Assembly (NCBI GenBank): GCA_028865725.1
Contig: JAGWJP010000001.1
Span: 55,377 to 119,376 of the forward strand
Reading direction: 5' to 3'
Length of the DNA stretch: 64,000 bases
Source: Patescibacteria group bacterium
GTDB taxonomy: Bacteria; Patescibacteriota; Minisyncoccia; UBA6257; JACRHW01
Below the pieces are notes generated by a model, which was not told the origin of the DNA, ran no database searches, and worked only from the letters and a program-made list of their open reading frames with translations. A program made the position numbers and the translations under genes. This document shows, in pieces, positions 20,560-62,757 of this stretch; position 1 is the stretch's first letter, and each line of letters opens with the position of its first letter.

Positions 20560-21111
20560 ATGACAGACGAAACATTTTGGAAAGATAAATCGGTTATTCT
20601 TGATACAAATATCCTTTCGCAGTTAGCAAAGGAAAAACGGGCGGATAAGTTCCGTCCCGTTTTTGATTTTTTTAAAAACAATAATATCGACCCACTTTTG
20701 ATTGATGCAACTTATTTTGAACTTTTAGGATTTACGGCAAATAAAAGCGATTTCGATTTTCTTGCTGAATGGGTTAAACAGTTTCCAATATTGCCGACCA
20801 AATCGGAGGATGTTGAATTAGCGTCCCTACTCTCGTCTTATTATAAAAACCTAGACCCCGAACTTAACAAAAAACAGATATCATACTGTGATTGTTTGCA
20901 CGCAGCACAACTGATTAAATTTGGTGGACGGGTATTTATTGTAACTACTGATATACATGATTATCCCATTTCTATTTTTGATATAAAAAGTATTCAAATT
21001 ATTGAAGATAATAAAAAAGCTGTGCTAGTTGGATTTATCACTTTTAATAAAGAGAAACTAGAAAAAGCAAGAATAAATTTTGAGAAATCAATTCAGGAGA
21101 AACGAGGATAG
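20560..21111 (+). CDS. PIN-domain protein (putative nuclease / toxin-like)
   Basis: Acidic residues arranged as in PIN domains: ILDTNIL, FELLG, YCDCLHAA, VTTDIHDY. Confidence 0.55.
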   Translation: MTDETFWKDKSVILDTNILSQLAKEKRADKFRPVFDFFKNNNIDPLLIDATYFELLGFTANKSDFDFLAEWVKQFPILPTKSEDVELASLLSSYYKNLDPELNKKQISYCDCLHAAQLIKFGGRVFIVTTDIHDYPISIFDIKSIQIIEDNKKAVLVGFITFNKEKLEKARINFEKSIQEKRG

Positions 21112-21343: not shown

Positions 21344-22129
21344 ATGTCTAACATCGTAAGCCCAAACAAACTGTCAGTACACAAGCAGCACGAGGTGCTT
21401 CTCAAGCTCGAAGCAGCGGGTCTCAACGACACCCTTGCCCAGAAGCTCGTCGACTCCAAAGACAATGACCTTGCTACGAGAGTGGTACGGCTCATCGAAA
21501 ACGGAGGCATCGAGCCGAGCACGAGTCAGAAGATGGCACGTAGCATCATGGGCAAGAACTTCTTTGGTGTGGAAGAGGCAGTGAAGCACTTCGGTGTCAA
21601 TCCCACGAAGGCTCAGCTCGCTCTTCTCGCCGAGATTCCGTTTACCAAAGCGGAGCTCAAAGAAAAGAAGAACTCCCATATCCTCGTCGCCGTCTTCCCG
21701 CTCTCCATCCTCGACATTCGTGGCAAGATGACCACCAAGGTTTTCTACAACCAGGACTGGTACAACAACCAGGACTGGTACAACAACCAGGACTTCGCCA
21801 AGAATCGTGGAGAAGTGGGATGGTATCTCATTCGCAAGACTCCCGTGGAGAATTCGACGAACAAGACGTGGCAAGAGCAGCAGGCTCTTCTCTCCGACAA
21901 GGATGAGACGCCGACTGCTCGGGTCATGGTCTATGCTATCGTCGGTCATTACCTGGCAACGGGTGAGCGACTTTTTGAGAGAATCTATGTACGCTGTTCG
22001 GACCTCGGTTCGGACGGCCGCCGTGTCAGCGTCGGTTACTTCGCTGCTCGTGGGCTGGGCGTCAGCGACTGCTGGGGTGATGACCGTTTCTCCAGCGTCG
22101 GTCTCGCCTCCGCTCGGAAGTCCAACTGA
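21344..22129 (+). CDS. DGR-1 target (variable) protein. Its C-terminal ~40 aa are encoded by the variable repeat.
   Basis: 261 aa. The C-terminus ...GSDGRRVSVGYFAARGLGVSDCWGDDRFSSVGLASAR is homologous to TR1 with adenine-specific differences. Shares NQDWYN and other segments with the DGR-2 targets. Confidence 0.8.
   Translation: MSNIVSPNKLSVHKQHEVLLKLEAAGLNDTLAQKLVDSKDNDLATRVVRLIENGGIEPSTSQKMARSIMGKNFFGVEEAVKHFGVNPTKAQLALLAEIPFTKAELKEKKNSHILVAVFPLSILDIRGKMTTKVFYNQDWYNNQDWYNNQDFAKNRGEVGWYLIRKTPVENSTNKTWQEQQALLSDKDETPTARVMVYAIVGHYLATGERLFERIYVRCSDLGSDGRRVSVGYFAARGLGVSDCWGDDRFSSVGLASARKSN
21749..21794 (+). repeat. Tandem 18-bp repeat (2.5 units) inside the DGR-1 target
   Basis: aaccaggactggtacaac repeated. 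Encodes NQDWYN-NQDWYN-NQD. Confidence 0.8.
22002..22123 (+). repeat. DGR-1 variable repeat (VR1)
   Basis: ~122 bp matching TR1 (22490-22611). Every mismatch is at a TR adenine (e.g. TR AAC to VR CGC/AGC/TAC). GC-rich 3' end atcggtctcgcctccgctcgg is identical (IMH-like). Confidence 0.8.
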
Positions 22130-22489
22130 ACCTAGAACCTTGAAGCCTTGAGCTTCTTCGACCCCTTGAGTTTCCCGCAACGATTTGCGTGAGACTCTTG
22201 GGGTTTTTTCTTTTTGAATTCTTTTTTGATACAATATCCTTGTTCTGCTTTTGAAGGTGAGGCTACGGTTTCATCTCGCAGATGTCTCTTCTTTGAGACT
22301 TCGCCAGAATAGCAGTTGTCTACGGATACCGCTAGCGTGCGAATAAAGATGGAGATTGGACTTCTTGCTCATCTTTGGTGGAGATGGTTTCACAACTTGC
22401 TCCCAAATAAAATACAGAAAGGAGAGGATATAGACTCCCGTGAGTAGTAACCCTCGATTTTCAGTGACAGAGAGGAAGATGGGCAAATT

Positions 22490-22611
22490 TCTCGATTCGG
22501 ACGGCAACCGTGTCAACGTCGGTAACTTCGATGCTAATGGGCTGAACGTCAACAACTACTGGGATGATAACCGTAACTCCAACATCGGTCTCGCCTCCGC
22601 TCGGCACTCTT
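22490..22611 (+). repeat. DGR-1 template repeat (TR1), rich in AAC codons
   Basis: gattcggacggcaaccgtgtcaacgtcggtaacttcgatgctaatgggctgaacgtcaacaactactgggatgataaccgtaactccaacatcggtctcgcctccgctcgg. Followed by the hairpin aacacccc-tttc-ggggtgtt. Confidence 0.8.
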
Positions 22612-22645
22612 TTCTCTATCACAACAACACCCCTTTCGGGGTGTT

Positions 22646-22996
22646 TTAGTAACTTTTTGTTGCTTTAATCCAACCCCCGAGCATTTTTCCAATTTCATCA
22701 ATATGTTCCTGAAGTATGATATATTTTTTAGCATCAATCGCTTTTACCTCTTTTGATAATCGCACCAATACCCGCAAGAGATTTAATTTCACGCTTGTTT
22801 TTTCAAGTATTGGGAGTTTCTCCATTTTTGTACTCTGGCTTGCGGCGAGAAGAAATTCTACAATATCTAACATTATTGTTTCGCACCGTTGCCATAGAAT
22901 ATAACGGTCTTGTTTTGCAACTGTGTTCCGATAGCTATACAGTGTTTTATACAGCTCATACGTTTTCTTAAAAATTGGGATATCGAATTCGTCCAT
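22646..22996 (-). CDS. avd: Avd-like accessory variability determinant of DGR-1 (four-helix-bundle family)
   Basis: 116 aa and helical. Divergent from the RT with a 4-nt gap. Paralog of the C-terminal part of the 61345-61719 ORF (DIPIFKKTY...IGKMLGGWI). Confidence 0.7.
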   Translation of the reverse strand: MDEFDIPIFKKTYELYKTLYSYRNTVAKQDRYILWQRCETIMLDIVEFLLAASQSTKMEKLPILEKTSVKLNLLRVLVRLSKEVKAIDAKKYIILQEHIDEIGKMLGGWIKATKSY

Positions 22997-23000
22997 AATT

Positions 23001-24047
23001 ATGAAAGTTTATAAGAATGTTTTTGAAGAAATAATTTCGTTAGAAAATTTGTTTGCTGCATGGGATACCTTCAAGAGCAACAAACAGAAGAAACGAGACG
23101 TACAAGCATTTGAATGGAATCTTGAACATAACATCTTCGAACTCCATAGAGCTTTGAAGTCAGGGCGTTATCGCCATGGTTCCTACACCTCGTTCTTTAT
23201 TCAAGACCCGAAGCAACGTCATATTCATAAGGCATTGGTACAAGATAGGATATTGCATCACGCTCTCTTTACGGTATTGAATCCAATCTTTGAATCCACG
23301 TTTATTGCTCATTCGTTTTCGTGCCGTGTAAACAAGGGAACTCACAAAGGCATAGAAGTTCTCGAAGGAATGATACGAAAAATAACCCACAATGGGGTTC
23401 ATATGGCGTTTGCTTTGAAATGTGATGTCCAAAAGTTCTTTGGGTCGGTTGACCATCAAACTCTGAAGTCTATCCTTGCTCGAAAAATCAAAGATGTTCA
23501 GGCACTGGACTTGTGTAGCAAGATTATCGACAGTTTTGCCACAAACCCGTTGGGGGGGGGGCGTTATAGGAGGGGTTTGCCGATTGGTAACCTCACCTCG
23601 CAATTGTTTGCCAACATCTATCTGAATGAATTTGACCAGTTTATTAAGCATGATTTGAAAGTGAAAAATTACGTACGGTATACCGATGATTTTGTCATTG
23701 TGCACCAGAGTGAGGAAGAACTCAAGAACCTTTTACCGAAGATACGAGAATTTTTGAGCACGAGATTAAAACTTACCTTGCATCCCCGAAAAGTTATCTT
23801 GAATAAAACATCCCAAGGAGTCGATTTCTTGGGGTATGTACTTTTGCTTCATCACAGAGCGTTGCGTACGAAAACAAGGAGGCGGATAGTGAGAAAATTC
23901 AAATTGCGGATGGGGGAGTATAGAAAGGGAGTTATTACAAGGCAGACCCTTGAACAGTCGTTGCAATCCTATCTCGGTGTTCTTTCTCACGCAGATAATT
24001 ATGTGATTTCCGAAGGATTAAAGAATATGCTTTGGTTTTGGAAATAG
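23001..24047 (+). CDS. DGR-1 reverse transcriptase
   Basis: 348 aa. Motif GLPIGNLTSQLFANIYLNEFD carries the DGR-specific I/LGxxxSQ. Also YTDDFVIV (YxDD). Confidence 0.85.
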   Translation: MKVYKNVFEEIISLENLFAAWDTFKSNKQKKRDVQAFEWNLEHNIFELHRALKSGRYRHGSYTSFFIQDPKQRHIHKALVQDRILHHALFTVLNPIFESTFIAHSFSCRVNKGTHKGIEVLEGMIRKITHNGVHMAFALKCDVQKFFGSVDHQTLKSILARKIKDVQALDLCSKIIDSFATNPLGGGRYRRGLPIGNLTSQLFANIYLNEFDQFIKHDLKVKNYVRYTDDFVIVHQSEEELKNLLPKIREFLSTRLKLTLHPRKVILNKTSQGVDFLGYVLLLHHRALRTKTRRRIVRKFKLRMGEYRKGVITRQTLEQSLQSYLGVLSHADNYVISEGLKNMLWFWK

Positions 24048-24049
24048 AG

Positions 24050-24172
24050 TAATCAATAAACCAAATCCGCCCCCGTGTCCGAAAAGCTAGGAATATACAC
24101 TGTAGCATCATTTCTACGCTCAAAAATAGTTCTAACATCCCACACTACGGCACCCACTTTACAAAATAGCAT
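24050..24172. repeat. ~125 bp intergenic repeat, copy A (family shared with 26882-27008 and the 21127 stub)
   Basis: Begins aatcaataaaccaaatc. About 80% identical to copy B over about 120 nt. Confidence 0.5.
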
Positions 24173-26881: not shown

Positions 26882-27008
26882 TGCGAATCAATAAACCAAA
26901 TCTATCGTTGTGTCTGCAAACGTAGGAACATACACTGTAGCGTCGTTTCTCTGCTCAAACACAATTTTAACATCCTCTACGACGGCACCCAAAGATTTGA
27001 CAAATAGC
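26882..27008. repeat. ~125 bp intergenic repeat, copy B
   Basis: aatcaataaaccaaatctatcgttgtgtctgcaaacgtaggaacatacactgtagcgtcgtttct... Aligns with 24050-24172. Confidence 0.5.
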
Positions 27009-52832: not shown

Positions 52833-52904
52833 GCTCCTGTAGTTCAATGGATAGAACATCCCCGTCCTAAGGGGAGGATGCAGGTCCGATTCCTGCTGGG
52901 AGCA
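52833..52904 (+). tRNA. tRNA-Arg (anticodon CCT)
   Basis: GCTCCTGTAGTTCAATGGATAGAACA-TCCCC-GTCCTAA-GGGGA...GCAGGTCCGATTCCTGCTGGGAGCA. Confidence 0.8.
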
Positions 52905-53054
52905 CACACTAGTGAGAGGTGTTTTGCGACCGTGTTTCTCGGTACTCCTGGGCGACCACGAGAGCCGACCCGACTGTACGGAAACACGTTTCACACACAA
53001 CAATAGCGCAGCATTTTGCCGCGCTCTTGTTGTCTCTCTCCACACATGACCCCG

Positions 53055-54395
53055 CTATACCGTTTCTTTCTGCACCAAACTGATCGTTCTGTCTTTGAGC
53101 GTAAGCCTACTTTTCAAGTTTGAAAGCAGCTCTCGCTTCTCTGTGATTGATCCGTCAGTCAAAATGTAGGCGGCATAGGCTTTCACATCAAAGATATCCG
53201 ATTCGTCATTCTTTTCCTTGGCTTTCCCCAACGCAATCCTCCTGAACTTGTTGTAACGGGTTATCTCATCATTGAATTTTTGTTTCACGCCAAGTTCGTT
53301 TAGATCGAGGGTATTCAAGATAGGGATGATTTGTTCAATGATCTCTTCTTCTTTGATGTAGCCGCACGGACAGTTTACATCTCTCCGCTTCGTACATCCG
53401 TAGTACACGTAACGGTGGGTATTCCCATTCTTCTGGTACTTCCATTTCTCGGAGGCGGTAATCCCTGATCCGCATAATCCACACGTTATCAACTTCGTGA
53501 AGGCGAACTCCTTGTCATTCTTCACCTCGCTCCGAACAAGCTGTTCCCGCGCGCGATCGTACAACTCTTTGGTAATGATAGGAGTATGAGTCCCTGTATA
53601 CCAATTCCCTGATCCTTCGGGGAATTCGAAGACGCCGTAATAGAAGGTTTTCTGGAGAATGAGGAAGATGTTTGAGAGCGAGAGATGTTTTCCATTTCCC
53701 GTTTTGAAATCTACATCGTTCCGAAGCCATTGATACAAGCGGCGGCCGCTCCATCCTTCATGCGCCACCTTCTCAAACATTTGTTTGATGATGGGTGCTC
53801 GTACCGGATCGACAATCACTTCACAGGGCTTATCCTTTCGTTTCTCATTCAGATAACCTGTTGGCGCGACAGAGGGACGAAGTCCTTGTTCGCAGCGTGT
53901 GCGCAATCCGCGTTTTACGTTCTCTGACTTATTGTCATTTTCAAGCTTGGCGGTGGAACACAGAATCATCAGCATGAATTTTTCGCTTGGGCTATTGGAG
54001 AATTTCTGTGAAAAAGTTCGGATTTCGATGAGGAGCTTCTGATCCATGAGATCGACAAGGCTTCCAAGATCGCCCGCATTTCTTGAAAGCCTATCTGGCG
54101 CCCAGGTCAGGATTCCATTAAACTTACCTCCGCGTATATCCTTGAGGAGTTCATTGAACACCTCACGCTGTCCTGTCGCCTTAGCAGAATGGCTCTCCTT
54201 TCTAATCTCTGTGATCTCCAAACCATCCCGCTCGGCAATCTTGATCATTTCTTTGATTTGAGAATCGATGGAAAGCACCTGCTGTTCCTCTGATTCCGTT
54301 GATTTTCTTGCGTACAAACAGTAGGCGACCTTTGTTGGCAGCGGTGGATTGGTTGAGGACGCCGTGCCTGCCGCCCCCTTTAGTTGATTGTTCAT
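53055..54395 (-). CDS. Large serine recombinase (second copy), adjacent to tRNA-Arg(CCT)
   Basis: YCLYARKSTESEEQQVLSIDSQ catalytic region, recombinase and zinc-ribbon domains. The ORF-track start at 54503 would read through the conserved post-VR element, so the internal Met at 54395 is preferred. Confidence 0.8.
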   Translation of the reverse strand: MNNQLKGAAGTASSTNPPLPTKVAYCLYARKSTESEEQQVLSIDSQIKEMIKIAERDGLEITEIRKESHSAKATGQREVFNELLKDIRGGKFNGILTWAPDRLSRNAGDLGSLVDLMDQKLLIEIRTFSQKFSNSPSEKFMLMILCSTAKLENDNKSENVKRGLRTRCEQGLRPSVAPTGYLNEKRKDKPCEVIVDPVRAPIIKQMFEKVAHEGWSGRRLYQWLRNDVDFKTGNGKHLSLSNIFLILQKTFYYGVFEFPEGSGNWYTGTHTPIITKELYDRAREQLVRSEVKNDKEFAFTKLITCGLCGSGITASEKWKYQKNGNTHRYVYYGCTKRRDVNCPCGYIKEEEIIEQIIPILNTLDLNELGVKQKFNDEITRYNKFRRIALGKAKEKNDESDIFDVKAYAAYILTDGSITEKRELLSNLKSRLTLKDRTISLVQKETV

Positions 54396-54454: not shown

Positions 54455-54518
54455 AAAAAATTTTTCGAACGTCCAAGGAATCAAGAAGAACCAAGACAAT
54501 CAAGCACCCAAGGCGAAA
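54455..54518 (-). repeat. Conserved ~64-nt element immediately 3' of VR-A (copy 1 of 3)
   Basis: gtttcgccttgggtgcttgattgtcttggttcttcttgattccttggacgttcgaaaaatttttt on the gene strand. Copies are near-identical after each VR stop. Confidence 0.7.
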
Positions 54519-55346
54519 CTACCGAGAGGGACAGACGCCCAGAGTGGAGTAAGTGCTGCCGCGGGAAACGCTGCGGACGCTGAGACCGCCCGAATCGAAG
54601 CTGCCAACGAGGACGAAGCCGCCGCCGGACGACTGAACACCGGTCCAGTCCCATTTATCTTCTAAGAGCGATTCTTTATTGGCGCCATAATATAAAAACG
54701 TATCGTACGCAATTTCTACAGGAGTTCTTCGCTTTACTGAAGCAGGATCAATGTTATTCTGTTTAGCCCAGTCTTTGAGAACCTCTTCTTGTTGGTCCCA
54801 GTTTTTTCCTAATGAATCGGGTAATACCGATCTTGCCACAAGACCCCAACCGAGCTTCGGAGTATCTTCGATAGCGAATTTTTCAGCGTCATACCACCCT
54901 TCACCTTTTTTGCTCACGAACATTTTTTGCTTCTTTTTCTTGGGATTGCCTAATGTGTCGCCACTTGAGAACCTCTCACGTATTTGATCGATAGTTAGCG
55001 GTTTTTCGGTTTTCCCTTCGCCAAGTCTTGATACTCTTAAGACAAGCATCATTCCCAATTTCTTTGCCTGTTCTAGTTCTTCTCGCGTAAAGGGTATTGT
55101 CTCTATTTTTTCTGATTCTTCTGGACTAAGTTCAACGCCATACGTGGCTTTAATGGCTTCGGGTCCTAGAAAGTCTTTACCAAATATTTCTTGGGCCTCG
55201 GTAAATTCAATGGATCCTTCTTTGGCCTCTGGTACAAGATTTTCTTTTTTTGCAATATCCAAAGCTTGCGCTACTTTCTTTTGTGTAGAGGTTTTGTATT
55301 TATTCGGCTCGTATTCGTCGTAGATTTTGTAGGCTTCGAAGGGCAT
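54519..55346 (-). CDS. DGR-2 target (variable) protein A. The C-terminal ~40 aa are encoded by VR-A.
   Basis: 275 aa with no signal peptide. Paralog of the genes at 57411 and 60045 (MPFEAYKIYDEYEPNKYKTSTQKKV...). C-terminus ends ...LGVCPSR. Confidence 0.8.
   Translation of the reverse strand: MPFEAYKIYDEYEPNKYKTSTQKKVAQALDIAKKENLVPEAKEGSIEFTEAQEIFGKDFLGPEAIKATYGVELSPEESEKIETIPFTREELEQAKKLGMMLVLRVSRLGEGKTEKPLTIDQIRERFSSGDTLGNPKKKKQKMFVSKKGEGWYDAEKFAIEDTPKLGWGLVARSVLPDSLGKNWDQQEEVLKDWAKQNNIDPASVKRRTPVEIAYDTFLYYGANKESLLEDKWDWTGVQSSGGGFVLVGSFDSGGLSVRSVSRGSTYSTLGVCPSR
54522..54641 (-). repeat. DGR-2 variable repeat A
   Basis: Reverse complement matches TR2 (61178-61297). Differences are almost all at TR adenines. 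One G-to-T difference. Confidence 0.75.
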
Positions 55347-55347
55347 G

Positions 55348-57333
55348 CTATAGGTCTTGTGTATATTTTAGAATAACGTTTTGGACCGCCTGTGGCAATG
55401 TTTTGATGTCAGCAATAACTTCAGCATCGGGTTTGTAGGTTTCTTTAACAGCTCCGCCTGATTCAGTCATACCAAGACCCAACACAATAACTCCTTTGCT
55501 GCGCAATTCACGAAGGATGCCCTGAACCCGAGAGGCATCCTGACTCTCTCCATCAGAAAGTACCACGACCACCTTTCTTCTCGTTTTTTCTCGCAATTCT
55601 TTCTCTTGCTCTTGCGTAATTGATTTCAGGACCGCATCCAAAGAAAGGTAATCAGGAGTGCCTCCTCCTGCTTTATGCATTTTCTTCCAAATACCAACCC
55701 TATCTTTCTCTGACAACTCCGGCGAAAGTTCTTTCAGTTCGGTATCGCCAAAGTCACCAAAGGCCCTTGTCTCTGTTCTTACCTGAAGACCAAGGACTAT
55801 ACCGCTTTCATATTCAGCTTGTTTGATTTCCTTTTGAAAATCAGCGAGCGATTCCAAGAATAGTAGTTTACTCTTCCGGTCCATTTCTAACTTACCGCCT
55901 TCGCTCATAGAACCAGAAAGATCGTTTACGAGAGACATGTCCAACATACCATAACCTTTTTGTTCTTTCTGATGTTTTTCAAGTTCACGAAATGCGTGTG
56001 GCTCTCCGCCCATCCGAGATTCGATGGAAGATTCGACGAGCGTGTCTTCGGATAATTCTTCACCTTCCGTCTCGAGCTGTGGCGAAAACTTCCAACGTTC
56101 TTTGAGGCGTCGAGAAATAATCTGTTTAAATACTTCTCGCAATTCAGCGACGAGCGGAGCAATTTCTGCATATTCCTTACGATACCCAAGAACATCCTCA
56201 GCGTTAACTCCGTGTTCACGAGCCCATTCTTCAAGAATATTCTGTTCTAGCGTTGGTGCTCCGCCTTTCTTGGCGACAATCTCTTCCATCATTTTCTTGA
56301 TCTGTTTCTCTTCTTCGTAGGTGATAGGTTCAGGGTGGCTGTCGTGGTATGTTTTGTATTGTTCTTTAAACTTCTTCTGAGCCGCTTCTTTCGCAGCACG
56401 ATCGCTGGTTTTTTTATCACCCTCGTTACCCGGCTTTTCTTCTTTTCCTTTGCCTTCTTGCGGTGTTTCCCTTTTTCTCTGCCACCATTTTCTTTTTTCC
56501 TGACCCGAACCTTGACCCTGTTGCGGCTTATCGGAAACCGTAGTGTCTGTTGGTGATACTTGCCCCTGATCTTTTTTACCATTCTTCTTTTCTTCCTCTA
56601 GGTCTTTCTCGTAAAGTTCCCGGTAGATAGGTTCAACGATCGTTCGCATAATGCGAAAACGATCTTTGGGATCAATGGTTGGTGTCGTGACAAGATCTAA
56701 AATATCTATTTTTTCAGAACCAAAACTTCGCAAGGTGTCCAACGCAGTTTGTGCATCTAGCCCAAGTTGTACTGCCTCACCGGACACCATCATCTGCCGG
56801 ATAAACCCATAGGTAAATTGGACATGGGAAGCTTTATCGGTGTAATCGGTTTGTGGAAACATCTTTTCTCGATAGAGAGTTTCACGTGTTTCCTTGAGAA
56901 ACGGAAGCTCAGCAACGATACGCCTGTTGCCTAACACGTCCTCAAAAATATTGTATAACAGATGGAGATGTTCTTTTGCACTATAACGCTTAGCCTCTTT
57001 TAAAATGAGCTCCGGATCGCGCAGGAGCTCGCCGTAGTGGGCCATGAGTTCATGTGTCGTGGCAAAGAGGGTTTCCTGAAGATTATACCCGCGTTCGATA
57101 AAGAAGTTGGGATCGTAGATAAGTTTTCGATTTTGAAAATCAAACGCCCAGCCGCCATTGCCCCGTTCTAAGGTAATGTCGCCCTTTAATCCATAGGCGG
57201 ACAAAAGCTCTGTCTCCCGATTCAAAAACTCCTCAACCGCAGGGGCATCAATTTCACGTTCTTTTTTAGGAACCTCCTGTTTTGGTGTATTACGAGGAGG
57301 TTCCATCCGATTTGTAGGGAATGATTCTTGCAT
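55348..57333 (-). CDS. von Willebrand factor A (VWA) domain protein with a long acidic/basic linker
   Basis: MIDAS LVNDLSGSMSEGG. C-terminal VWA fold ...VVVLSDGESQD...GVIVLGLGMTE. 661 aa. Confidence 0.7.
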   Translation of the reverse strand: MQESFPTNRMEPPRNTPKQEVPKKEREIDAPAVEEFLNRETELLSAYGLKGDITLERGNGGWAFDFQNRKLIYDPNFFIERGYNLQETLFATTHELMAHYGELLRDPELILKEAKRYSAKEHLHLLYNIFEDVLGNRRIVAELPFLKETRETLYREKMFPQTDYTDKASHVQFTYGFIRQMMVSGEAVQLGLDAQTALDTLRSFGSEKIDILDLVTTPTIDPKDRFRIMRTIVEPIYRELYEKDLEEEKKNGKKDQGQVSPTDTTVSDKPQQGQGSGQEKRKWWQRKRETPQEGKGKEEKPGNEGDKKTSDRAAKEAAQKKFKEQYKTYHDSHPEPITYEEEKQIKKMMEEIVAKKGGAPTLEQNILEEWAREHGVNAEDVLGYRKEYAEIAPLVAELREVFKQIISRRLKERWKFSPQLETEGEELSEDTLVESSIESRMGGEPHAFRELEKHQKEQKGYGMLDMSLVNDLSGSMSEGGKLEMDRKSKLLFLESLADFQKEIKQAEYESGIVLGLQVRTETRAFGDFGDTELKELSPELSEKDRVGIWKKMHKAGGGTPDYLSLDAVLKSITQEQEKELREKTRRKVVVVLSDGESQDASRVQGILRELRSKGVIVLGLGMTESGGAVKETYKPDAEVIADIKTLPQAVQNVILKYTQDL

Positions 57334-57344
57334 TGAGATAGTTA

Positions 57345-57410
57345 TAAAAAATTTTTTCGAACGTCCAAGGAATCAAAAAGAATCAAGAGATCCAAGCACC
57401 CAAGGGGAAA
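57345..57410 (-). repeat. Conserved post-VR element, copy 2
   Basis: Same sequence family as 54455-54518. Confidence 0.7.
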
Positions 57411-58229
57411 CTACCGAGAGGGACAGACGCCCAGATCGGAGCTCGTGCCGTCGCGGGTATCGCTGTAGACGTTGAGACCGTCCGAATCGAAGCGGCCAAC
57501 GAAGACGAAGCTGCCGCCGGACGACTGAACGGCAGACCAGTCATAAGAACTTTCGAGGAGAGATTCTTTGTTCGCACCATAATACAAAAGAGTATCGTAG
57601 ATGATCTCAACGGGAGTCCTACGTTTTACTGAAGCAGGATCAATATTGTTTTGTTTGGCCCAACTCTTGAGAACCTCTTCTTGCTGATCCCAGTTTTTAC
57701 TGCGTGATTCCTGTAAGACTTCTTTCATAACTAAACTCCACCCGAGTGAAGGCGTAACCTGTGTAGCAAACGATTCATTATTATACCAATCCTGATCGTA
57801 AAATATCTTTGTTTTTTTCTTGGTGGGATTACCCAACTTGTCTCCCGCCTTAAAAACTCCCCGCACATTGTTAATGCTAAAAGGTTTTGCAGTTTTATCC
57901 TTACCGATTCTTGGTATGCGTAAGACGAGCATCATGCCAAGTTGTTTTGCCTGTTCTAATTCTTCTCGAGTAAATGGGATGTTTTCGATACGTCCAAGTT
58001 CATCAGGAGAGAGTTCAATCCCGAACGTTGCTTTGACAGCTTCAGGACCCAAAAAATCCTTACCTAATAGTTCTTGGGCCTCATTGAACTCAATAGTTAC
58101 TTCCTTTGCCTCAGGCACAAGATTTTCTTTCTTGGCAATATCTAAAGCCTGAGCCACCTTCTTTTGCGTGGAAGTTTTGTACTTGTTGGGCTCGTATTCG
58201 TCGTAAATTTTGTAGGCTTCAAAAGGCAT
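57411..58229 (-). CDS. DGR-2 target protein B
   Basis: 272 aa. About 75-80% identical to target A outside the VR. C-terminus ...SFVFVGRFDSDGLNVYSDTRDGTSSDLGVCPSR. Confidence 0.8.
   Translation of the reverse strand: MPFEAYKIYDEYEPNKYKTSTQKKVAQALDIAKKENLVPEAKEVTIEFNEAQELLGKDFLGPEAVKATFGIELSPDELGRIENIPFTREELEQAKQLGMMLVLRIPRIGKDKTAKPFSINNVRGVFKAGDKLGNPTKKKTKIFYDQDWYNNESFATQVTPSLGWSLVMKEVLQESRSKNWDQQEEVLKSWAKQNNIDPASVKRRTPVEIIYDTLLYYGANKESLLESSYDWSAVQSSGGSFVFVGRFDSDGLNVYSDTRDGTSSDLGVCPSR
57414..57533 (-). repeat. DGR-2 variable repeat B
   Basis: Reverse complement aligns to TR2. All 12 or so mismatches fall on TR adenines. Confidence 0.8.
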
Positions 58230-58258
58230 GATTCGATACGCGTATCAACGAATGGTCA

Positions 58259-59938
58259 TTATTCTTTACCCTGCCACTGACGGACTGTTTTAGAAGATAA
58301 TCCTTGGATATCAAATTCTTCTGGATTAGTGTCCTTGAAAAATTTATTCGCCATAAATACTTTAATCATATTTTCACGATCCTTGGCGGCTCGACCGCTG
58401 ATTTCTGCCTTTCTGAAAAATTCTCGGAGCACAACATTTTCTAATGGTTCAGCAAAACCAGAGGCCTTCCAGGCTTTCATGATTTCAATTTGATCTTTTA
58501 AGGTAATAACGAGTTCTTTAAAGGCAAGTTTATCGCTACGCGCTAATGAATCTTCACCACCTTCTCGCATGCTCAAAGTAAAATCTTCCTGAATCTTACG
58601 GCACGCGCCGACAAAACGCTTTAACGCATCGAGTTTTTGTGGTGCTTCTTGTTCGTCCCACGCAATGGCGCCATTTCGATCTGCAAGTACACCCGCAAGA
58701 ATAGTAAGCGTCTCAGGAGCAATATATTCACCTTCTTTGTTCTTTTTGCCGAGATCTAGATAATGAATTTCTTTCGCCCCCGCACCGCCGATAAAACGGC
58801 GAAGCGTGGCAACATCAAGTTCGTAGCGTTGCTTATAGCGTTCTGATTTAAGATTAGCGGTGGCAAAAATAACAAATCCGGGGGCAACCTTGATTGATTC
58901 TCCTGTTGAAGGATGCTTCCATGAACTGCCCACACGTAACTGAAAAATTTCGTTCAAAATGCCTTGAAATTCATGAGGCATAAGGTTCATTTCATCCAAA
59001 ATAACGGGACGCCCTTCCTTCATGCTTTTCACAAGTTCTGAATACAGAAAATCAGTAGCGCCATCTTTGAGGGTAACACGTCCCATGATTTGAGATTCTT
59101 TGATTTGTTCGGAAATGGAGATTGGCGCAACTTCGTAACCCAGAAATCTATGAGAAATGTATTTAGCAAGCTGAGTCTTGCCAGAACCTGTTTCGCCTTG
59201 AAACAAAATAGGCGCGCCGCGCAATAAATCAGGTAAGACGTCTTGAATAAGCTTGGTGCGCGATTCTGTCTCGGCAAAACTATAACGCTCTAAATCTTGT
59301 TGCGTGCGCCGAACCTCTCTCCGGCGTAGCATATCAATTGATGCCGGATCTAATTCAAAAGCAGTTACATTGTTTTGTAGTTCCTCTCTCCGATTTGTGA
59401 GATCGGTAAGCTTGGTGCGTTCAATCGGGCCCGGTGCGCGTCCTATTTTTTCATAGAGCACGCGAAGTTTTTGTTCACTATTCGTGACAGCGCTAAGTTC
59501 TTTTTGGAGATGTTCATAGGTTAGAACGTTGGCTAACGTATCCTTCATGCCTTCAAAGCGCTCTTTATACGTCTCCATTACTTTGGAGTTACTGCCCAGT
59601 TCTTGAATACGCGCATCATATTCAGCAAGAACATTCTCGGAAAATTCTGCCATTTCAGGATCAATTTTAAGTGCGTCAAATTGAGCCGCAACCGCATCAT
59701 CGCCTTGAGCCTTCAATTCTTCTCGTTCGGTTTTTGTAAGACCGCCCCACGATTCACGGACGTGCTTTGATGCTTCGACTCTTGCGGCGGAGAGGTCCAT
59801 AAGCTCTTGGACTCGTGTTTCAAGTTGCTCAGGAGAAAGTTTTTGCTTCTCTTTTGTACTATCAACACCTTTTTCCTCAATAACGCGCTCCGGAGTGGTA
59901 GGTAGATTAGGCATTGATGGAAATTGTTCTTTGGGCAT
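58259..59938 (-). CDS. MoxR-like AAA+ ATPase (AAA_5 / dynein-related subfamily)
   Basis: Walker A LFQGETGSGKTQLAKY. Walker B VILDEMNLMPHEFQGILNEIFQ. ...FVIFATANL. 559 aa with a coiled-coil N-terminus. Confidence 0.8.
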   Translation of the reverse strand: MPKEQFPSMPNLPTTPERVIEEKGVDSTKEKQKLSPEQLETRVQELMDLSAARVEASKHVRESWGGLTKTEREELKAQGDDAVAAQFDALKIDPEMAEFSENVLAEYDARIQELGSNSKVMETYKERFEGMKDTLANVLTYEHLQKELSAVTNSEQKLRVLYEKIGRAPGPIERTKLTDLTNRREELQNNVTAFELDPASIDMLRRREVRRTQQDLERYSFAETESRTKLIQDVLPDLLRGAPILFQGETGSGKTQLAKYISHRFLGYEVAPISISEQIKESQIMGRVTLKDGATDFLYSELVKSMKEGRPVILDEMNLMPHEFQGILNEIFQLRVGSSWKHPSTGESIKVAPGFVIFATANLKSERYKQRYELDVATLRRFIGGAGAKEIHYLDLGKKNKEGEYIAPETLTILAGVLADRNGAIAWDEQEAPQKLDALKRFVGACRKIQEDFTLSMREGGEDSLARSDKLAFKELVITLKDQIEIMKAWKASGFAEPLENVVLREFFRKAEISGRAAKDRENMIKVFMANKFFKDTNPEEFDIQGLSSKTVRQWQGKE

Positions 59939-59980
59939 ATTGTAAGTGTTATACGGTTATGAATTGATTGTACCAGTTTC

Positions 59981-60044
59981 AAAAATTTTTTCGAACGTCC
60001 AAGGAATCAAGAAGAACCAAGACAATCAAGCACCCAAGGGGAAA
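59981..60044 (-). repeat. Conserved post-VR element, copy 3
   Basis: Same sequence family as 54455-54518. Confidence 0.7.
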
Positions 60045-60857
60045 CTACCGAGAGGGACAGACGCCCAGACTGGAGCTCGTGCCGTCGCGGGTATCGTCGC
60101 TGACGTCGAGACCGCCCGAATCGAAGCTGCCAACGTCGACGAAGCTGCCGTCGGACGACTGAACGGCAGACCAATCCCAGGTAGATTCTAATAATGATTC
60201 TTTGTTTGCACCATAATAGAGGAGAGTGTCATAGATGATTTCTACGGGGGTTCTGCGTTTAATAGTATTCGGATCTATATTATTGTCTTTTGCCCACTTT
60301 TTAAGAACCTCCTCTTGTTGATCCCAATTTTTATCCAATGATTCCTGGAGCACGTCTTTTGTTACCAGGCTCCATTTGAGTTGCGGTGTCGGTTTTGTTG
60401 CAAATTCTTGGTCGTTATACCAATCCTGTGATTTCCAAAACAAATTCGTTTTCTTCTTTGCGGGATCTCCCAATGCATCATCGGACCCGAATTGTTCTCG
60501 CAATTGTTTGATGGTAAGCAGGTTTCCATCCTTATCATGCGATACCCGCAACACAAGCATCATCTTAAGATGTTTTGCTTGTTCAAGCTCTTCTCGAGTA
60601 AACGGGATGTTTTCAATCTCCTGCAATTCTTCAGGGGTAAGTTCGACGCCATATGTCGTTTTAACCGATTCGGGTCCCAGAAAATCTTTGCCGAATAGTT
60701 CTCTGGCTTCATTGAATTCGATGTTTGTTTCTTTAGCTTCAGGTATGAGATTCTCTTTTTTGGCAATGTCTAAAGCCTGCTCAACCTTTTTCTGAGTAGA
60801 AGTCTTGTATTTATTCGGTTCGTATTCGTCGTAAATTTTGTAAGCTTCAAAAGGCAT
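60045..60857 (-). CDS. DGR-2 target protein C
   Basis: 270-aa paralog. C-terminus ...GSFVDVGSFDSGGLDVSDDTRDGTSSSLGVCPSR. Confidence 0.8.
   Translation of the reverse strand: MPFEAYKIYDEYEPNKYKTSTQKKVEQALDIAKKENLIPEAKETNIEFNEARELFGKDFLGPESVKTTYGVELTPEELQEIENIPFTREELEQAKHLKMMLVLRVSHDKDGNLLTIKQLREQFGSDDALGDPAKKKTNLFWKSQDWYNDQEFATKPTPQLKWSLVTKDVLQESLDKNWDQQEEVLKKWAKDNNIDPNTIKRRTPVEIIYDTLLYYGANKESLLESTWDWSAVQSSDGSFVDVGSFDSGGLDVSDDTRDGTSSSLGVCPSR
60048..60167 (-). repeat. DGR-2 variable repeat C
   Basis: Reverse complement versus TR2: all differences are A to G or A to other at TR adenines. Confidence 0.8.
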
Positions 60858-61177
60858 AGCTATTTCTTTAACTATACAGAATATGAAACATTTTTGCCAA
60901 CTTTCGCAATCATAAAACGTATGCCATACTAATGGCGAGCTTTGTTACTAGAGATTAGGCTGCATAGGTTTAATCTTACGGATCTCCTTTTTGCATATTC
61001 CGCCGGAGTTTCTGTGGCATATCGGTTATAGAAAGCGCGCGGTGGCAAAACGTAAGAACAACGAAACTACGTGTTTTGTTTCAATGTGGATGCCTTGTGC
61101 ACGGGCTGCCACTACGTAAAATTCAGGAGATATTTCCTTGTTGAAATTATCCGGTGATGGGGAAGGAACAAAACACA

Positions 61178-61297
61178 CAGGTTCAGTCGTCCGACGGCAA
61201 CTTCGTCAACGTTGGCAACTTCGATTCGGACGGTCTCAACGTCAACAACGATACCCGCGACAACACGAACTCCAATCTGGGCGTCTGTCCCTCTCGG
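61178..61297 (+). repeat. DGR-2 template repeat (TR2), AAC-rich
   Basis: gttcagtcgtccgacggcaacttcgtcaacgttggcaacttcgattcggacggtctcaacgtcaacaacgatacccgcgacaacacgaactccaatctgggcgtctgtccctctcgg. In-frame translation is ...NFVNVGNFDSDGLNVNNDTRDNTNSNLGVCPSR. Confidence 0.8.
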
Positions 61298-61314
61298 TAG
61301 TTTTGTTAATCTGG

Positions 61315-61345
61315 ATGAAGAGGCCTTCTTAGAAGGCCTCTTCAT
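61315..61345. terminator. Perfect 14-bp stem-loop between TR2 and the Avd 3' end
   Basis: atgaagaggccttc-tta-gaaggcctcttcat. Confidence 0.5.
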
Positions 61346-61719
61346 TACTCTCGCGTTGATCGGATCCATCCGCCAAGCATTTTGCCAATTTCCTGGATAT
61401 GGTTTTGGCAAACAACGTATCGCTTATCGCTCAGCGCATCAACGTCGTTTGTTAATCGGATAAAAACTTTTAACATATCAAGCTTGCCGCTTGCAGATTC
61501 TAGTATGGGTAATTTGCGATCTTTTGTGATTTGGGCGGCCAACATAATATCCTTCAAGATTTGTAAAATATATTCTTCGCAATATTGGCCTAACGTATAG
61601 CGATCTTTCTTTGGGAAATCGAGCTCGAAAATGTAGAACTCTTTGAAAAAATCATACGTTTTTTTGAAGATAGGGATATCTAAGCTAAATTTTCCATCAT
61701 AGCCATGAGAGTTTTCCAT
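61345..61719 (-). CDS. avd: Avd-like accessory variability determinant of DGR-2. The start is uncertain.
   Basis: The C-terminal ~120 aa of ORF 61345-61932 align with the Avd of DGR-1 (DIPIFKKTYDFF...IGKMLGGWI). Met at 61719 overlaps the divergent RT start by 15 nt. An alternative start upstream cannot be excluded. Confidence 0.6.
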   Translation of the reverse strand: MENSHGYDGKFSLDIPIFKKTYDFFKEFYIFELDFPKKDRYTLGQYCEEYILQILKDIMLAAQITKDRKLPILESASGKLDMLKVFIRLTNDVDALSDKRYVVCQNHIQEIGKMLGGWIRSTRE

Positions 61720-62757
61720 AATATTTTTGATCAAATTATTAATATAGAGAATTTGGTTACTTCGTGGAGAGAATTTCGGATTGGCAAAAAACATCGCCGC
61801 GATACACTTATTTTTGAATATCGGTTGGAGGATAATCTCTGGTATCTTCGGAGGGTGCTTGAGGATAGAACGTACAAGCATTCCGGATACTTCTCTTTCT
61901 TTGTACAAGACCCGAAGGTCCGGCATATCCATAAAGCATCGGTTCGGGATCGAGTGTTACACCACGCGATTGTGAAACATCTTAACCCAATTTTCGAACC
62001 AACATTTATTTATGATTCCTATTCTTGCAGAATTAATAAAGGCACTCATCGAGGAATCAAAGCTTTTACTAAACATGCTCGGCAAGTCAGCAAAAACTGG
62101 ACAAGCACATGCTGGGTACTGAAATGCGACATCAGAAAATTTTTTGCCACCATCGATCACAATGTTTTGCTCGATATACTCTTTAGACATATTGCCGATC
62201 CTGACACGCGATGGTTACTACGCGAGGTTGTTTCAAGTTTTCGTTCGGAGTTTACGGTTGATCCGGAAAACCCCAAAGGAGTGCCTATCGGCAATCTTAC
62301 CTCGCAACTTTTTGCCAACGTGTACCTGAACGAGCTCGACCAATTTGTAAAGCATCAGTTGAAAGAAAAACACTACATTCGTTATGCCGATGATTTTGTG
62401 ATACTACACCCCCAAAGAGATCACTGTTTAGATATTGTGAAACGTATCACTACATTCCTTAAAGAATTTCTCAAGCTTGAATTGCATCCCAATAAAGTTA
62501 CTGTTAGAAAATTTAGCCAAGGCGTAGATTTTTTGGGTTACGTTTCTTTTCCTCATTTTGTGATACCGAGAAATAAAACCAGGAACAGAGTATTCAATAA
62601 AATACATGACAATATTTTGCTCTATAAACGTGGCCAATGGACGCTCGAGTCACTAAATCAAAGCATTCATTCATATCTTGGAATTTTATCTCACAGTAAT
62701 TCATTTGATCTCCAACAGGAGCTTGAAAATCAGATATTTTTTTGGCTGACAGAATAA
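61705..62757 (+). CDS. DGR-2 reverse transcriptase
   Basis: 350 aa. GVPIGNLTSQLFANVYLNELD (I/LGxxxSQ). YIRYADDFVIL. About 55% identical to the RT at 23001-24047. Confidence 0.85.
   Translation: MRVFHNIFDQIINIENLVTSWREFRIGKKHRRDTLIFEYRLEDNLWYLRRVLEDRTYKHSGYFSFFVQDPKVRHIHKASVRDRVLHHAIVKHLNPIFEPTFIYDSYSCRINKGTHRGIKAFTKHARQVSKNWTSTCWVLKCDIRKFFATIDHNVLLDILFRHIADPDTRWLLREVVSSFRSEFTVDPENPKGVPIGNLTSQLFANVYLNELDQFVKHQLKEKHYIRYADDFVILHPQRDHCLDIVKRITTFLKEFLKLELHPNKVTVRKFSQGVDFLGYVSFPHFVIPRNKTRNRVFNKIHDNILLYKRGQWTLESLNQSIHSYLGILSHSNSFDLQQELENQIFFWLTE

What the first reader, a model, noticed from the sequence alone, without database searches (positions are those of the whole stretch)
54455..62757. Complete DGR with one template repeat and three variable repeats on three paralogous targets
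Seen directly in the sequence:
- A 120-bp AAC-rich template (61178-61297) sits just upstream of a divergent Avd/RT pair. The RT has the DGR-specific LGxxxSQ motif.
- The reverse complements of the last ~120 coding bp of three co-oriented paralogs (54519, 57411, 60045) match that template.
- Essentially every mismatch is at a template adenine. Template Asn codons become Ser, Arg, Tyr, Phe, Gly or Asp in the variable repeats.
- The GC-rich 3' ends are identical.

This is the adenine-mutagenesis signature of mutagenic retrohoming. One template serves three targets, so the variable repeats can be compared as independent readouts.
Basis: partly seen in the sequence, partly recalled or inferred. Interest (0 to 1): 0.8.

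Follow-up and report, generated by a model that had tools for sequence, protein, structure and literature searches.

The report
Three-target retroelement on a CPR mobile island
This is a real, complete diversity-generating retroelement of the layout typical of Patescibacteria: it rewrites the binding tips of three paralogous lectin-fold proteins that sit in one conserved cassette with a MoxR-type ATPase and a VWA protein, so it is a well-supported example of a known system rather than a new kind.

Summary
A 123-nt template repeat (61181-61303, + strand) matches the last 120 coding nt plus 3 nt of three paralogous genes on the minus strand. Of 41 mismatches, 40 lie at template adenines (p about 4e-25). 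All 27 template adenines sit at codon positions 1 or 2, and no stop codon can arise.

The reverse transcriptase is closest to the Bordetella phage DGR enzyme. Avd passes NCBI's curated DGR model. The targets fold as C-type lectins. The layout TR-(avd)-RT is the 'B3' architecture reported for about 90% of CPR DGRs.

- The targets are interleaved with a midasin/MoxR-type AAA+ ATPase and a MIDAS-type VWA protein. This gene order recurs in other Patescibacteria.
- Long relatives of the targets carry the same ATPase domain fused to the same lectin core.
- The cassette lies on a roughly 15.5-kb island with a serine recombinase, between two tRNA genes.
- A second complete DGR lies at 21.3-24.0 kb.

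Current activity in this genome could not be tested. Two near-identical related contigs differ almost only inside one variable repeat. Verdict: new member of a known kind, moderate interest.

The parts
61181..61303 (+). Template repeat (TR), non-coding; 27 adenines, all at codon positions 1 or 2 of the VR frame
61116..61152 (+). Conserved 5' flank of the TR: the motif GTAAAATTCAGG (possible -10 element or RNA start) followed by a hairpin at 61126-61152 that shows compensatory changes across loci
   Evidence: 3 of 6 pairs changed on both sides; single exact match in the window
61314..61346 (+). 15-bp perfect hairpin 10 nt after the TR, between the TR and the 3' end of avd. Every related TR has such a hairpin, each with a different sequence
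   Evidence: -25 kcal/mol, z -5.0; seven TRs, z -2.2 to -10.3
61345..61719 (-). avd accessory gene (124 aa), antisense between the TR and the RT
   Evidence: NF033474 DivGenRetAVD, 85.8 bits against a cut-off of 80
61705..62757 (+). DGR reverse transcriptase (350 aa) with IGNLTSQ and YADD motifs
60045..60857 (-). Target 3 (270 aa), C-type-lectin fold; VR3 = 60042-60164
59981..60044 (-). Conserved 64-nt non-coding element directly downstream of VR3
58259..59938 (-). Midasin/MoxR-type AAA+ ATPase (559 aa), Walker A and B motifs intact
57411..58229 (-). Target 2 (272 aa), C-type-lectin fold (AF2 pLDDT 87); VR2 = 57408-57530
57347..57410 (-). Conserved 64-nt non-coding element directly downstream of VR2
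55348..57333 (-). VWA protein (661 aa). The C-terminal domain is of the MIDAS type with DLSGS; the N-terminal domain carries an invariant HExxxH
54519..55346 (-). Target 1 (275 aa); VR1 = 54516-54638
54455..54518 (-). Conserved 64-nt non-coding element directly downstream of VR1
53055..54395 (-). Large serine recombinase (446 aa as called in the public record), at the edge of the island
52833..52905 (+). tRNA-Arg(CCT) at the left edge of the island. The right edge, tRNA-Ser, lies beyond the window at L010 16732-16822

Best explanation
This is a complete diversity-generating retroelement of the CPR-typical TR-(avd)-RT layout, carried on an integrative island of a Patescibacteria genome.

Mechanism of diversification:
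- The TR is transcribed from the + strand.
- The RT-Avd complex copies the transcript into cDNA and misincorporates opposite template adenines.
- The cDNA replaces the last ~120 coding nt of three paralogous genes. This recodes 17 codons on the ligand-binding face of a C-type-lectin fold and leaves the scaffold codons untouched.
- Targeting probably depends on the 30-nt 3' end that is identical in TR and VRs, together with the conserved 64-nt element found only downstream of each VR.

Likely function: the three diversified proteins are soluble and probably work as a complex with the midasin/MoxR-type ATPase and the MIDAS-type VWA protein encoded between them. They would be variable recognition subunits of an ATP-driven remodelling or signalling machine.

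Shown: the parts, the adenine-specific pattern, the fold, the conserved synteny and the domain fusions. Inferred: the transcript ends, the priming mechanism, the role of the cis elements, current activity, the physical complex and its biological role.
For: Retroelement parts:
- 40 of 41 TR/VR mismatches are at TR adenines. All adenines sit at codon positions 1 or 2, and no stop codon is reachable.
- The RT's best PDB relative is BPP-1 bRT, E 9e-41. Avd scores above the NCBIfam DGR-Avd cut-off.

Evidence of homing after the paralogs diverged:
- 278 of 279 non-A positions in the three VRs equal the TR, while the paralogous coding bodies are only 43-73% three-way identical.
- Across the family, A-bearing codons have 2.36 bits of entropy, against 0.21 at the other VR codons.
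- In six related loci, 233 of 260 TR/VR mismatches are at adenines.
- Two related contigs that are 99.86% identical differ at 23 sites. Of these, 21 are inside one VR and 18 are at TR adenines.

Cassette:
- The order RT/Avd/TR/(T)/MoxR/T/VWA/T recurs in Yanofskybacteria and other Patescibacteria bins, down to 50% target identity.
- 8 of 10 long relatives of the target carry AAA_5 fused N-terminal to the same lectin core.
Against: - There is no direct evidence of activity in this genome. The two public assemblies that hold the locus are identical over 12.3 kb, and each target is alone in its 90% identity cluster.
- No GC-rich inverted repeat follows the VRs. The 3' ends of TR and VR are identical, so no IMH/IMH* distinction is visible.
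- No promoter-like site for the TR was found by the consensus scan.
- The three VR sequences come from a metagenome assembly and could be population consensus sequences.
- The link to MoxR and VWA rests on synteny and domain fusions only.
Confidence: 0.85

Rival explanations
1. Fossil DGR. The parts are intact in sequence, but the element no longer homes, and the three VRs record past events only.
For: No VR variation is seen between the two assemblies that hold the locus. No variant members occur in the protein clusters. The substitution spectrum is skewed: 29 of 40 changes are A->G, against 118 of 248 in related loci, p 0.006.
Against: The RT, Avd and TR are intact. Of 279 non-A VR positions, 278 are still identical to the TR although the paralogs have diverged strongly elsewhere. 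A close relative of the element shows one VR rewritten between contigs that are 99.86% identical.
Confidence: 0.1
2. The DGR is real, but the targets are secreted or surface adhesins used for attachment to a host cell, which is the usual reading for CPR DGRs. On this view the MoxR and VWA genes only assist folding or export and are not a sensing or signalling machine.
For: C-type-lectin VR domains are ligand binders. Patescibacteria are commonly episymbionts (established knowledge). MoxR-VWA pairs often act as maturation chaperones, as in NorQ/NorD.
Against: None of the five proteins has a signal peptide or a hydrophobic segment; the maximum Kyte-Doolittle 19-residue mean is 0.88. The cassette travels with recombinases, restriction-modification and methylase genes on mobile elements. 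AAA_5-lectin fusions place the variable domain on a cytoplasmic-type ATPase.
Confidence: 0.2
3. There is no retroelement activity. The four repeats are kept alike by gene conversion among paralogs, and the variable sites reflect diversifying selection on a lectin surface.
For: Paralogs in tandem often undergo conversion. The variable sites lie in a binding domain.
Against: Conversion and selection do not explain a non-coding fourth copy in which every variable site is an adenine. They also do not explain an adjacent DGR-type RT and Avd, or the same pattern in six other loci.
Confidence: 0.01

Closest known systems
CPR/Patescibacteria DGRs of architecture B3, TR-(avd)-RT (Wu et al. 2018, PMC5758913; Paul et al. 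2017, not readable here; 'DGR clade 2' of Roux et al. 2021)
   Same: The order and orientation of TR, avd and RT are the same. The targets are C-terminal-VR proteins without recognisable Pfam domains, signal peptides or TM segments. [quoted passage not shown]
   Different: None of the papers I could read describes this particular five-gene cassette of three small targets interleaved with separate MoxR and VWA genes. I could not check the supplementary catalogues. The Yanofskybacteria relatives come from the Rifle groundwater genomes that those surveys used.
CPR DGR targets with an AAA/midasin-type ATPase fused to the variable domain (UVR4 class of Wu et al. 2018; described as the commonest CPR target architecture in PMC10907252, citing Paul et al. 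2017)
   Same: The lectin core is the same, with profile hits at E 1e-50 to 1e-68. The ATPase family, AAA_5, is also the same.
   Different: Here the ATPase is a separate gene, a VWA/MIDAS protein is added, and there are three lectin paralogs instead of one fused domain.
DGR-linked MoxR-vWA 'VMAP ternary' conflict systems of cyanobacteria and Thiohalocapsa (Kaur et al. 2020, PMC7159879; PMC10907252)
   Same: A MoxR-type ATPase, a vWA protein and a DGR-diversified C-type-lectin (FGS) domain occur in one locus. The proposed logic is a variable sensor coupled to an ATP-driven switch.
   Different: In those systems the vWA is usually fused to the variable domain, a VMAP, iSTAND or FtsH third component and protease or TIR effectors are present, and the RTs belong to another DGR clade (5). 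None of these extra parts was found here. The only candidate catalytic part here is the HExxxH domain of the VWA protein.
Bordetella phage BPP-1 DGR (mtd, avd, TR, brt)
   Same: Shared features are a homologous RT and Avd, adenine-specific mutagenesis, a C-terminal VR in a C-type-lectin fold and AAC-rich template codons.
   Different: In BPP-1 the genes are co-oriented as avd-TR-brt. It has a single target that is a phage tail-fibre protein, IMH differs from IMH*, and a GC-rich hairpin follows the VR. Here avd is inverted, the 3' ends are identical, no hairpin follows the VRs and a strong hairpin follows the TR.
Midasin (Rea1/MDN1) and NorQ/NorD: AAA+ ring plus MIDAS/VWA domain remodellers
   Same: The ATPase matches midasin AAA modules and NorQ. 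The VWA domain is structurally closest to the Rea1/MDN1 MIDAS domain and to NorD.
   Different: These are ribosome-assembly and metalloenzyme-maturation factors with no link to retroelements. The resemblance suggests how the pair may grip and pull a substrate, not what the substrate is.

Membership tests
Diversity-generating retroelement (DGR) | Reverse transcriptase of the DGR clade, with the [I/L]GxxxSQ motif and YxDD | tested here: met
   The best PDB relative is BPP-1 bRT: 143 bits, E 9e-41, aligned over residues 5-328. The next class (retron-type and group II RTs) scores 81 bits. IGNLTSQ is at residue 195 and YADD at 227. No dedicated DGR-RT HMM was available.
Diversity-generating retroelement (DGR) | A template repeat and variable repeat(s) whose differences lie at template adenines | tested here: met
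   40 of 41 mismatches are at A in three VRs, p 4e-25.
Diversity-generating retroelement (DGR) | Accessory variability determinant (Avd) next to the RT | tested here: met
   NCBIfam NF033474 scores 85.8 bits against a cut-off of 80. Pfam bAvd gives E 5e-18.
Diversity-generating retroelement (DGR) | VR at the C-terminus of a C-type-lectin (or Ig) fold target, with adenines at codon positions 1 and 2 | tested here: met
Diversity-generating retroelement (DGR) | IMH at the VR end distinct from IMH* at the TR end | tested here: inconclusive
   TR and VRs are identical through the stop codon plus 3 nt, and discrimination would have to lie in the conserved 64-nt stretch downstream of each VR. In related loci the TR has CAG or AAG where the VRs have TAG.
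Diversity-generating retroelement (DGR) | GC-rich inverted repeat downstream of the VR (present in about a third of DGRs; not universal) | tested here: not met
   Folding of the downstream regions gives z +0.4 to +1.5.
Diversity-generating retroelement (DGR) | Ongoing mutagenic homing: VR heterogeneity with an invariant TR within a population | not testable with these tools
   No reads are available, and the two assemblies are identical. Indirect evidence: related contigs L005 and L006 differ almost only in one VR.
CPR 'B3' DGR architecture (Wu et al. 2018) | Order TR-(avd)-RT with avd on the opposite strand | tested here: met
   TR 61181-61303 (+), avd 61345-61719 (-), RT 61705-62757 (+). The definition comes from PMC5758913.
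MoxR-vWA ternary conflict systems (Kaur et al. 2020) | MoxR-clade AAA+ ATPase paired with a vWA protein that has a MIDAS site | tested here: met
MoxR-vWA ternary conflict systems (Kaur et al. 2020) | A third core component (VMAP, iSTAND, FtsH or beta-propeller) and effector domains (protease, TIR, cyclase) | tested here: not met
   There are no such Pfam, NCBIfam or PADLOC hits in the cassette. Only an uncharacterised HExxxH domain was found.
MoxR-vWA ternary conflict systems (Kaur et al. 2020) | Anti-invader function | not testable with these tools
   There is context only: the island and its relatives carry methylases, a restriction enzyme, recombinases or conjugation genes.

The most novel reading that the evidence does not exclude
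The cassette T-MoxR-T-VWA-T is a self-contained, horizontally mobile machine of Patescibacteria. Three independently hypermutated lectin subunits would dock, through their conserved and disordered N-terminal ~45 residues, onto a split midasin-like ATPase/MIDAS pair whose VWA subunit carries a possible HExxxH metalloprotease. It would be a cytoplasmic, DGR-programmed recognition system for conflict or defence, carried by integrative and conjugative elements. It would be the split counterpart of the AAA-lectin fusion targets and an analogue, in another DGR clade, of the MoxR-vWA sensors of multicellular bacteria.
Probability: 0.3. Interest if true: 0.6.

Novelty: new member of a known kind. Interest (0 to 1): 0.35.

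Why it matters
As a DGR, the locus adds nothing new in principle. CPR DGRs with this layout, with several targets and with ATPase-linked targets have already been surveyed.

Its value is as a clean, well-delimited example.
- One template gives three paralogous readouts.
- The cassette has a conserved partner pair, MoxR and VWA.
- Domain fusions in relatives argue that the variable lectins act together with the ATPase.
- The cassette sits on a mobile carrier.

The role of DGR targets in CPR bacteria is still open, because the targets lack signal peptides and known domains. This cassette offers a testable hypothesis for that role: variable recognition subunits of a midasin-like remodeller. It also offers small proteins suited to structural and interaction work.

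Tried and rejected
- GC-rich hairpin or cruciform downstream of the VRs, as in BPP-1: none was found; folding was no better than for shuffled sequence.
- Rfam scan of 52-64 kb: only the tRNA was found, and no known RNA family covers the TR region.
- Sequence searches of the targets against Pfam, NCBIfam, PADLOC, PHROGs and the PDB: no hits. Only the fold comparison identified the lectin fold.
- Direct repeats as att sites around the island: none were found. None are expected for a serine recombinase, so the island limits rest on the two flanking tRNA genes only.
- Phage origin: there is no tblastn match in 50,697 phage records and there are no structural genes. One IMG/VR contig is simply a copy of the Yanofskybacteria element.
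- VR heterogeneity in this strain: the second assembly is identical. An exact-flank search of JGI metagenomes found nothing.
- Paul et al. 2017 and the supplements of Wu et al. 2018 are not held. I therefore could not check whether the Yanofskybacteria cassette is already listed.
Full report
OBSERVATION

Local alignment and the repeat finder place the template repeat at 61181-61303 on the + strand. Three inverted copies lie at 54516-54638, 57408-57530 and 60042-60164. Each ends 3 nt past the stop codon of a minus-strand ORF (54519-55346, 57411-58229, 60045-60857).

Over the 120 coding positions the VRs differ from the TR at 18, 12 and 11 sites. Forty of these 41 differences face a TR adenine, and the TR has 27 A in 120 nt. 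Fisher p is 7e-13, 2e-9 and 1e-8, and the pooled binomial p is 4e-25. The single exception is a G->T in VR1.

All 27 adenines occupy codon positions 1 or 2 of the VR reading frame, and no adenine substitution can create a stop codon. The theoretical repertoire is about 2.5e15 peptides per target. The last 27 coding nt, the stop codon and 3 more nt are identical in all four copies.

THE RETROELEMENT PARTS

- RT (61705-62757, +, 350 aa). It matches Pfam RVT_1. Among solved structures it is closest by a wide margin to the Bordetella phage BPP-1 DGR RT, 8ub7: 143 bits, E 9e-41, aligned over almost the full length. Retron-type and group II intron RTs score about 80 bits. It carries IGNLTSQ and YADD.
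- avd (61345-61719, -, 124 aa). It matches Pfam bAvd and exceeds the curated cut-off of NCBIfam NF033474, 'diversity-generating retroelement protein Avd' (85.8 against 80 bits).
- avd lies antisense between the TR and the RT, and the two start codons overlap by 15 nt. This TR-(avd)-RT order is architecture 'B3' of Wu et al. 2018. They report it for 90% of their CPR set and find it nearly absent elsewhere (PMC5758913).
- Host. The window comes from a Patescibacteria MAG (locus tags KGI50_00650 to 00670). It is identical over 12.3 kb to contig JAGWUQ010000002.1.

THE TARGETS

The three proteins (275, 272 and 270 aa) are 74-75% identical to one another. They have no hit in Pfam, NCBIfam, PADLOC, PHROGs or PDB sequence searches.

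Within 22 close homologues, the 17 codons that hold a TR adenine have a mean entropy of 2.36 bits. The other 22 VR codons have 0.21 bits and the rest of the protein 0.84 bits. The family therefore varies exactly where the template has adenines, on an otherwise rigid scaffold (G..FV.VG.F.S.GL.V....R...S.LGVCPSR).

None of the targets has a signal peptide or a hydrophobic segment.

IS IT ACTIVE?

Activity in this genome cannot be shown with these tools. No reads are available, the two assemblies are identical, each target is alone in its 90% cluster, and an exact-flank search of JGI metagenomes was empty.

Three indirect arguments favour homing after the paralogs diverged.
- 278 of 279 non-adenine VR positions are identical to the TR, while the rest of the three coding sequences is only 43-73% three-way identical.
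- All the protein parts are intact.
- In a related element, two contigs from different samples are 99.86% identical over 16,331 nt. They differ at 23 positions, 21 of them inside the VR of the last target and 18 at TR adenines.

In six related loci with 15 further VRs, 233 of 260 mismatches are at TR adenines. Most of the remainder are fixed differences shared by all VRs of a locus.

CIS ELEMENTS

No inverted repeat follows the VRs; folding is no better than for shuffled sequence. Instead, the 64 nt after each stop codon (54455-54518, 57347-57410, 59981-60044) are 83-87% three-way identical. This exceeds the coding bodies, and identity falls to 20% just beyond. The stretch is also conserved in related elements. 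TR and VR are identical up to 3 nt past the stop and diverge exactly where this stretch begins, so it is the best candidate for the signal that marks a recipient. This is an inference.

The TR is followed after 10 nt by a perfect 15-bp hairpin (61314-61346; -25 kcal/mol, z -5.0). All seven TRs examined, including that of the second DGR in the window, have such a hairpin of 8-21 bp with a different sequence. It may be a structural or priming element of the TR RNA, the terminator of the convergent avd gene, or both. No T-run follows it on either strand.

Upstream of the TR, the motif GTAAAATTCAGG (61116-61127) and a hairpin with compensatory changes (61126-61152) are conserved. The motif has one exact copy in the window. 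No known Rfam family covers any of this.

THE CASSETTE AND ITS CARRIER

Between the targets lie two further genes.
- A 559-aa AAA_5 ATPase (58259-59938). Its closest solved relatives are midasin AAA modules (E 4e-38) and NorQ, and its Walker A and B motifs are intact.

The order RT/Avd/TR/(target)/ATPase/target/VWA/target recurs in two Yanofskybacteria genomes, in bins labelled Saccharibacteria and Nomurabacteria, and in several metagenome contigs. It persists down to 50% target identity. Two-target versions lack the first target. At 35% identity the target still sits beside an AAA_5 gene, an RT and an Avd, inside a conjugative element.

A profile of the target finds 3,670 cluster representatives (559 at E <= 1e-30) in 1.84 billion proteins. 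Of ten long relatives tested, eight have an AAA_5 domain fused N-terminal to the same lectin core. These fusions, together with the conserved synteny, argue that the ATPase and the variable lectins act together.

The target of the window's other DGR shares the lectin core (29% identity, E 5e-25). It lacks the N-terminal ~45 residues that are strongly conserved, yet predicted disordered, in the cassette's targets, and it has no ATPase or VWA neighbour. That N-terminal segment is therefore a candidate docking peptide. This is an inference.

The cassette lies on a stretch of about 15.5 kb between tRNA-Arg (52833-52905) and a tRNA-Ser beyond the window end. The stretch also encodes a large serine recombinase, two N6/N4 DNA methyltransferases (one fused to ParB_N), an XRE-type repressor with an ImmA-like M78 peptidase, and three unknown proteins. 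Relatives carry the same recombinase and methylase backbone in other arrangements, sometimes with a DpnII-type restriction gene and a transposase. No phage structural genes and no phage database matches were found. An integrative mobile element is the most likely carrier.

HOW IT MOST LIKELY WORKS

Shown: the parts list, the adenine-specific pattern, the lectin fold, the conserved cassette and the fusions.

Inferred from established DGR biology (BPP-1): the + strand TR transcript is reverse-transcribed by RT-Avd with misincorporation at adenines, and the cDNA replaces each VR, guided by the shared 3' end and the VR-specific downstream element.

Inferred from the midasin and NorQ/NorD analogy and from the fusions: the VWA MIDAS site grips an acidic residue of a partner, and the ATPase ring remodels it. 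The three lectins would supply three independently variable recognition surfaces.

Whether this serves conflict or defence or host-cell interaction is open. Conflict or defence has been proposed for the MoxR-vWA-DGR systems of multicellular bacteria (PMC7159879, PMC10907252). Host-cell interaction is the usual reading for CPR DGRs. The lack of export signals and the mobile-element context favour an intracellular role.

COMPARISON AND NOVELTY

As a DGR, this locus is a textbook member of the CPR-type B3 group. Multi-target DGRs make up about 15% of catalogued elements, and three-target cases have been illustrated. ATPase-linked CPR targets are known: the UVR4/Midasin class in Wu et al. 2018, and 'CLec fused to an AAA ATPase' in PMC10907252 citing Paul et al. 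2017.

I did not find the split five-gene cassette with a MIDAS-type VWA protein, or its carriage on serine-recombinase islands, in the papers I could read. I could not read Paul et al. 2017 or the supplementary catalogues, and the Yanofskybacteria relatives come from the same groundwater genomes those studies used.

The locus is not a member of the VMAP ternary systems. The third component and the effector domains are absent, the vWA is not fused to the variable domain, and the RT clade is expected to differ; the RT clade was not tested on a tree.

VERDICT

This is a new member of a known kind. Interest is moderate (0.35), mainly as a clean model for asking what CPR DGR targets do.

Noticed in passing
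window 21344-24047: There is a second complete DGR with the same B3 layout. Its parts are: target 21344-22129 (+) with a VR at about 22004-22122; TR1 at about 22491-22609; a hairpin at 22626-22645; avd 22646-22996 (-); and RT 23001-24047 (+). All 19 core mismatches are at TR adenines. RT1 and RT2 are 48% identical. The two TRs are about 80% alike but have different 3' ends, so cross-homing seems unlikely.
   Followed up: partly
window 24050-24156 and 26885-26991: A 107-nt direct repeat (78% identical) flanks a 2.8-kb block directly after RT1. The block encodes three ORFs with no function assigned here. The mismatches are not adenine-specific.
   Followed up: no
window VR1-VR3 (54519-54638, 57411-57530, 60045-60164): The substitution spectrum is skewed towards A->G: 29 of 40 changes, and 11 of 11 in VR3. 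In related loci the figure is 118 of 248 (p 0.006). The cause could be selection for Ser, Gly or Asp, an RT bias, or chance.
   Followed up: partly
window 55348-57333 (-), residues 50-254: The N-terminal domain of the VWA protein is confidently modelled and carries an invariant HExxxH (HELMAH) motif across 31 homologues. It has no Pfam or PDB sequence match, and it may be a metallopeptidase.
   Followed up: partly
L005 9224-9346 versus L006 9107-9229: Two contigs from different samples are 99.86% identical. They differ at 23 sites, 21 of them inside one VR, including three non-adenine changes in L006. This looks like a natural snapshot of a homing event in a relative of this element.
   Followed up: yes
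L018 (GCA_900206355.1 contig OBEQ012154279.1): A distant relative of the target (35% identity) lies with an AAA_5 gene, an RT and an Avd inside a conjugative element that has coupling-protein, relaxase, T4SS pilin and VirB4-like genes.
   Followed up: no
L011, L012, L014, L015 TR 3' ends: In these relatives the TR has CAG or AAG where the VRs have the stop codon TAG. This is a one-base difference between the TR and VR 3' ends (IMH*/IMH-like) that the window's own TR lacks.
   Followed up: partly
window 61705-61719: The start regions of avd and RT overlap by 15 nt on opposite strands. In the other DGR they are 4 nt apart. Each gene's promoter must therefore lie inside the other gene, or the RT is read through from the TR transcript.
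   Followed up: no
window 20560-21111: A PIN-domain protein (Pfam E 2e-5) is encoded just upstream of the target of the first DGR.
   Followed up: no
L016 (IMGVR_UViG_3300025323_000504): IMG/VR lists a 12.6-kb copy of the Yanofskybacteria version of this element as a viral contig, although it has no recognisable structural genes.
   Followed up: partly
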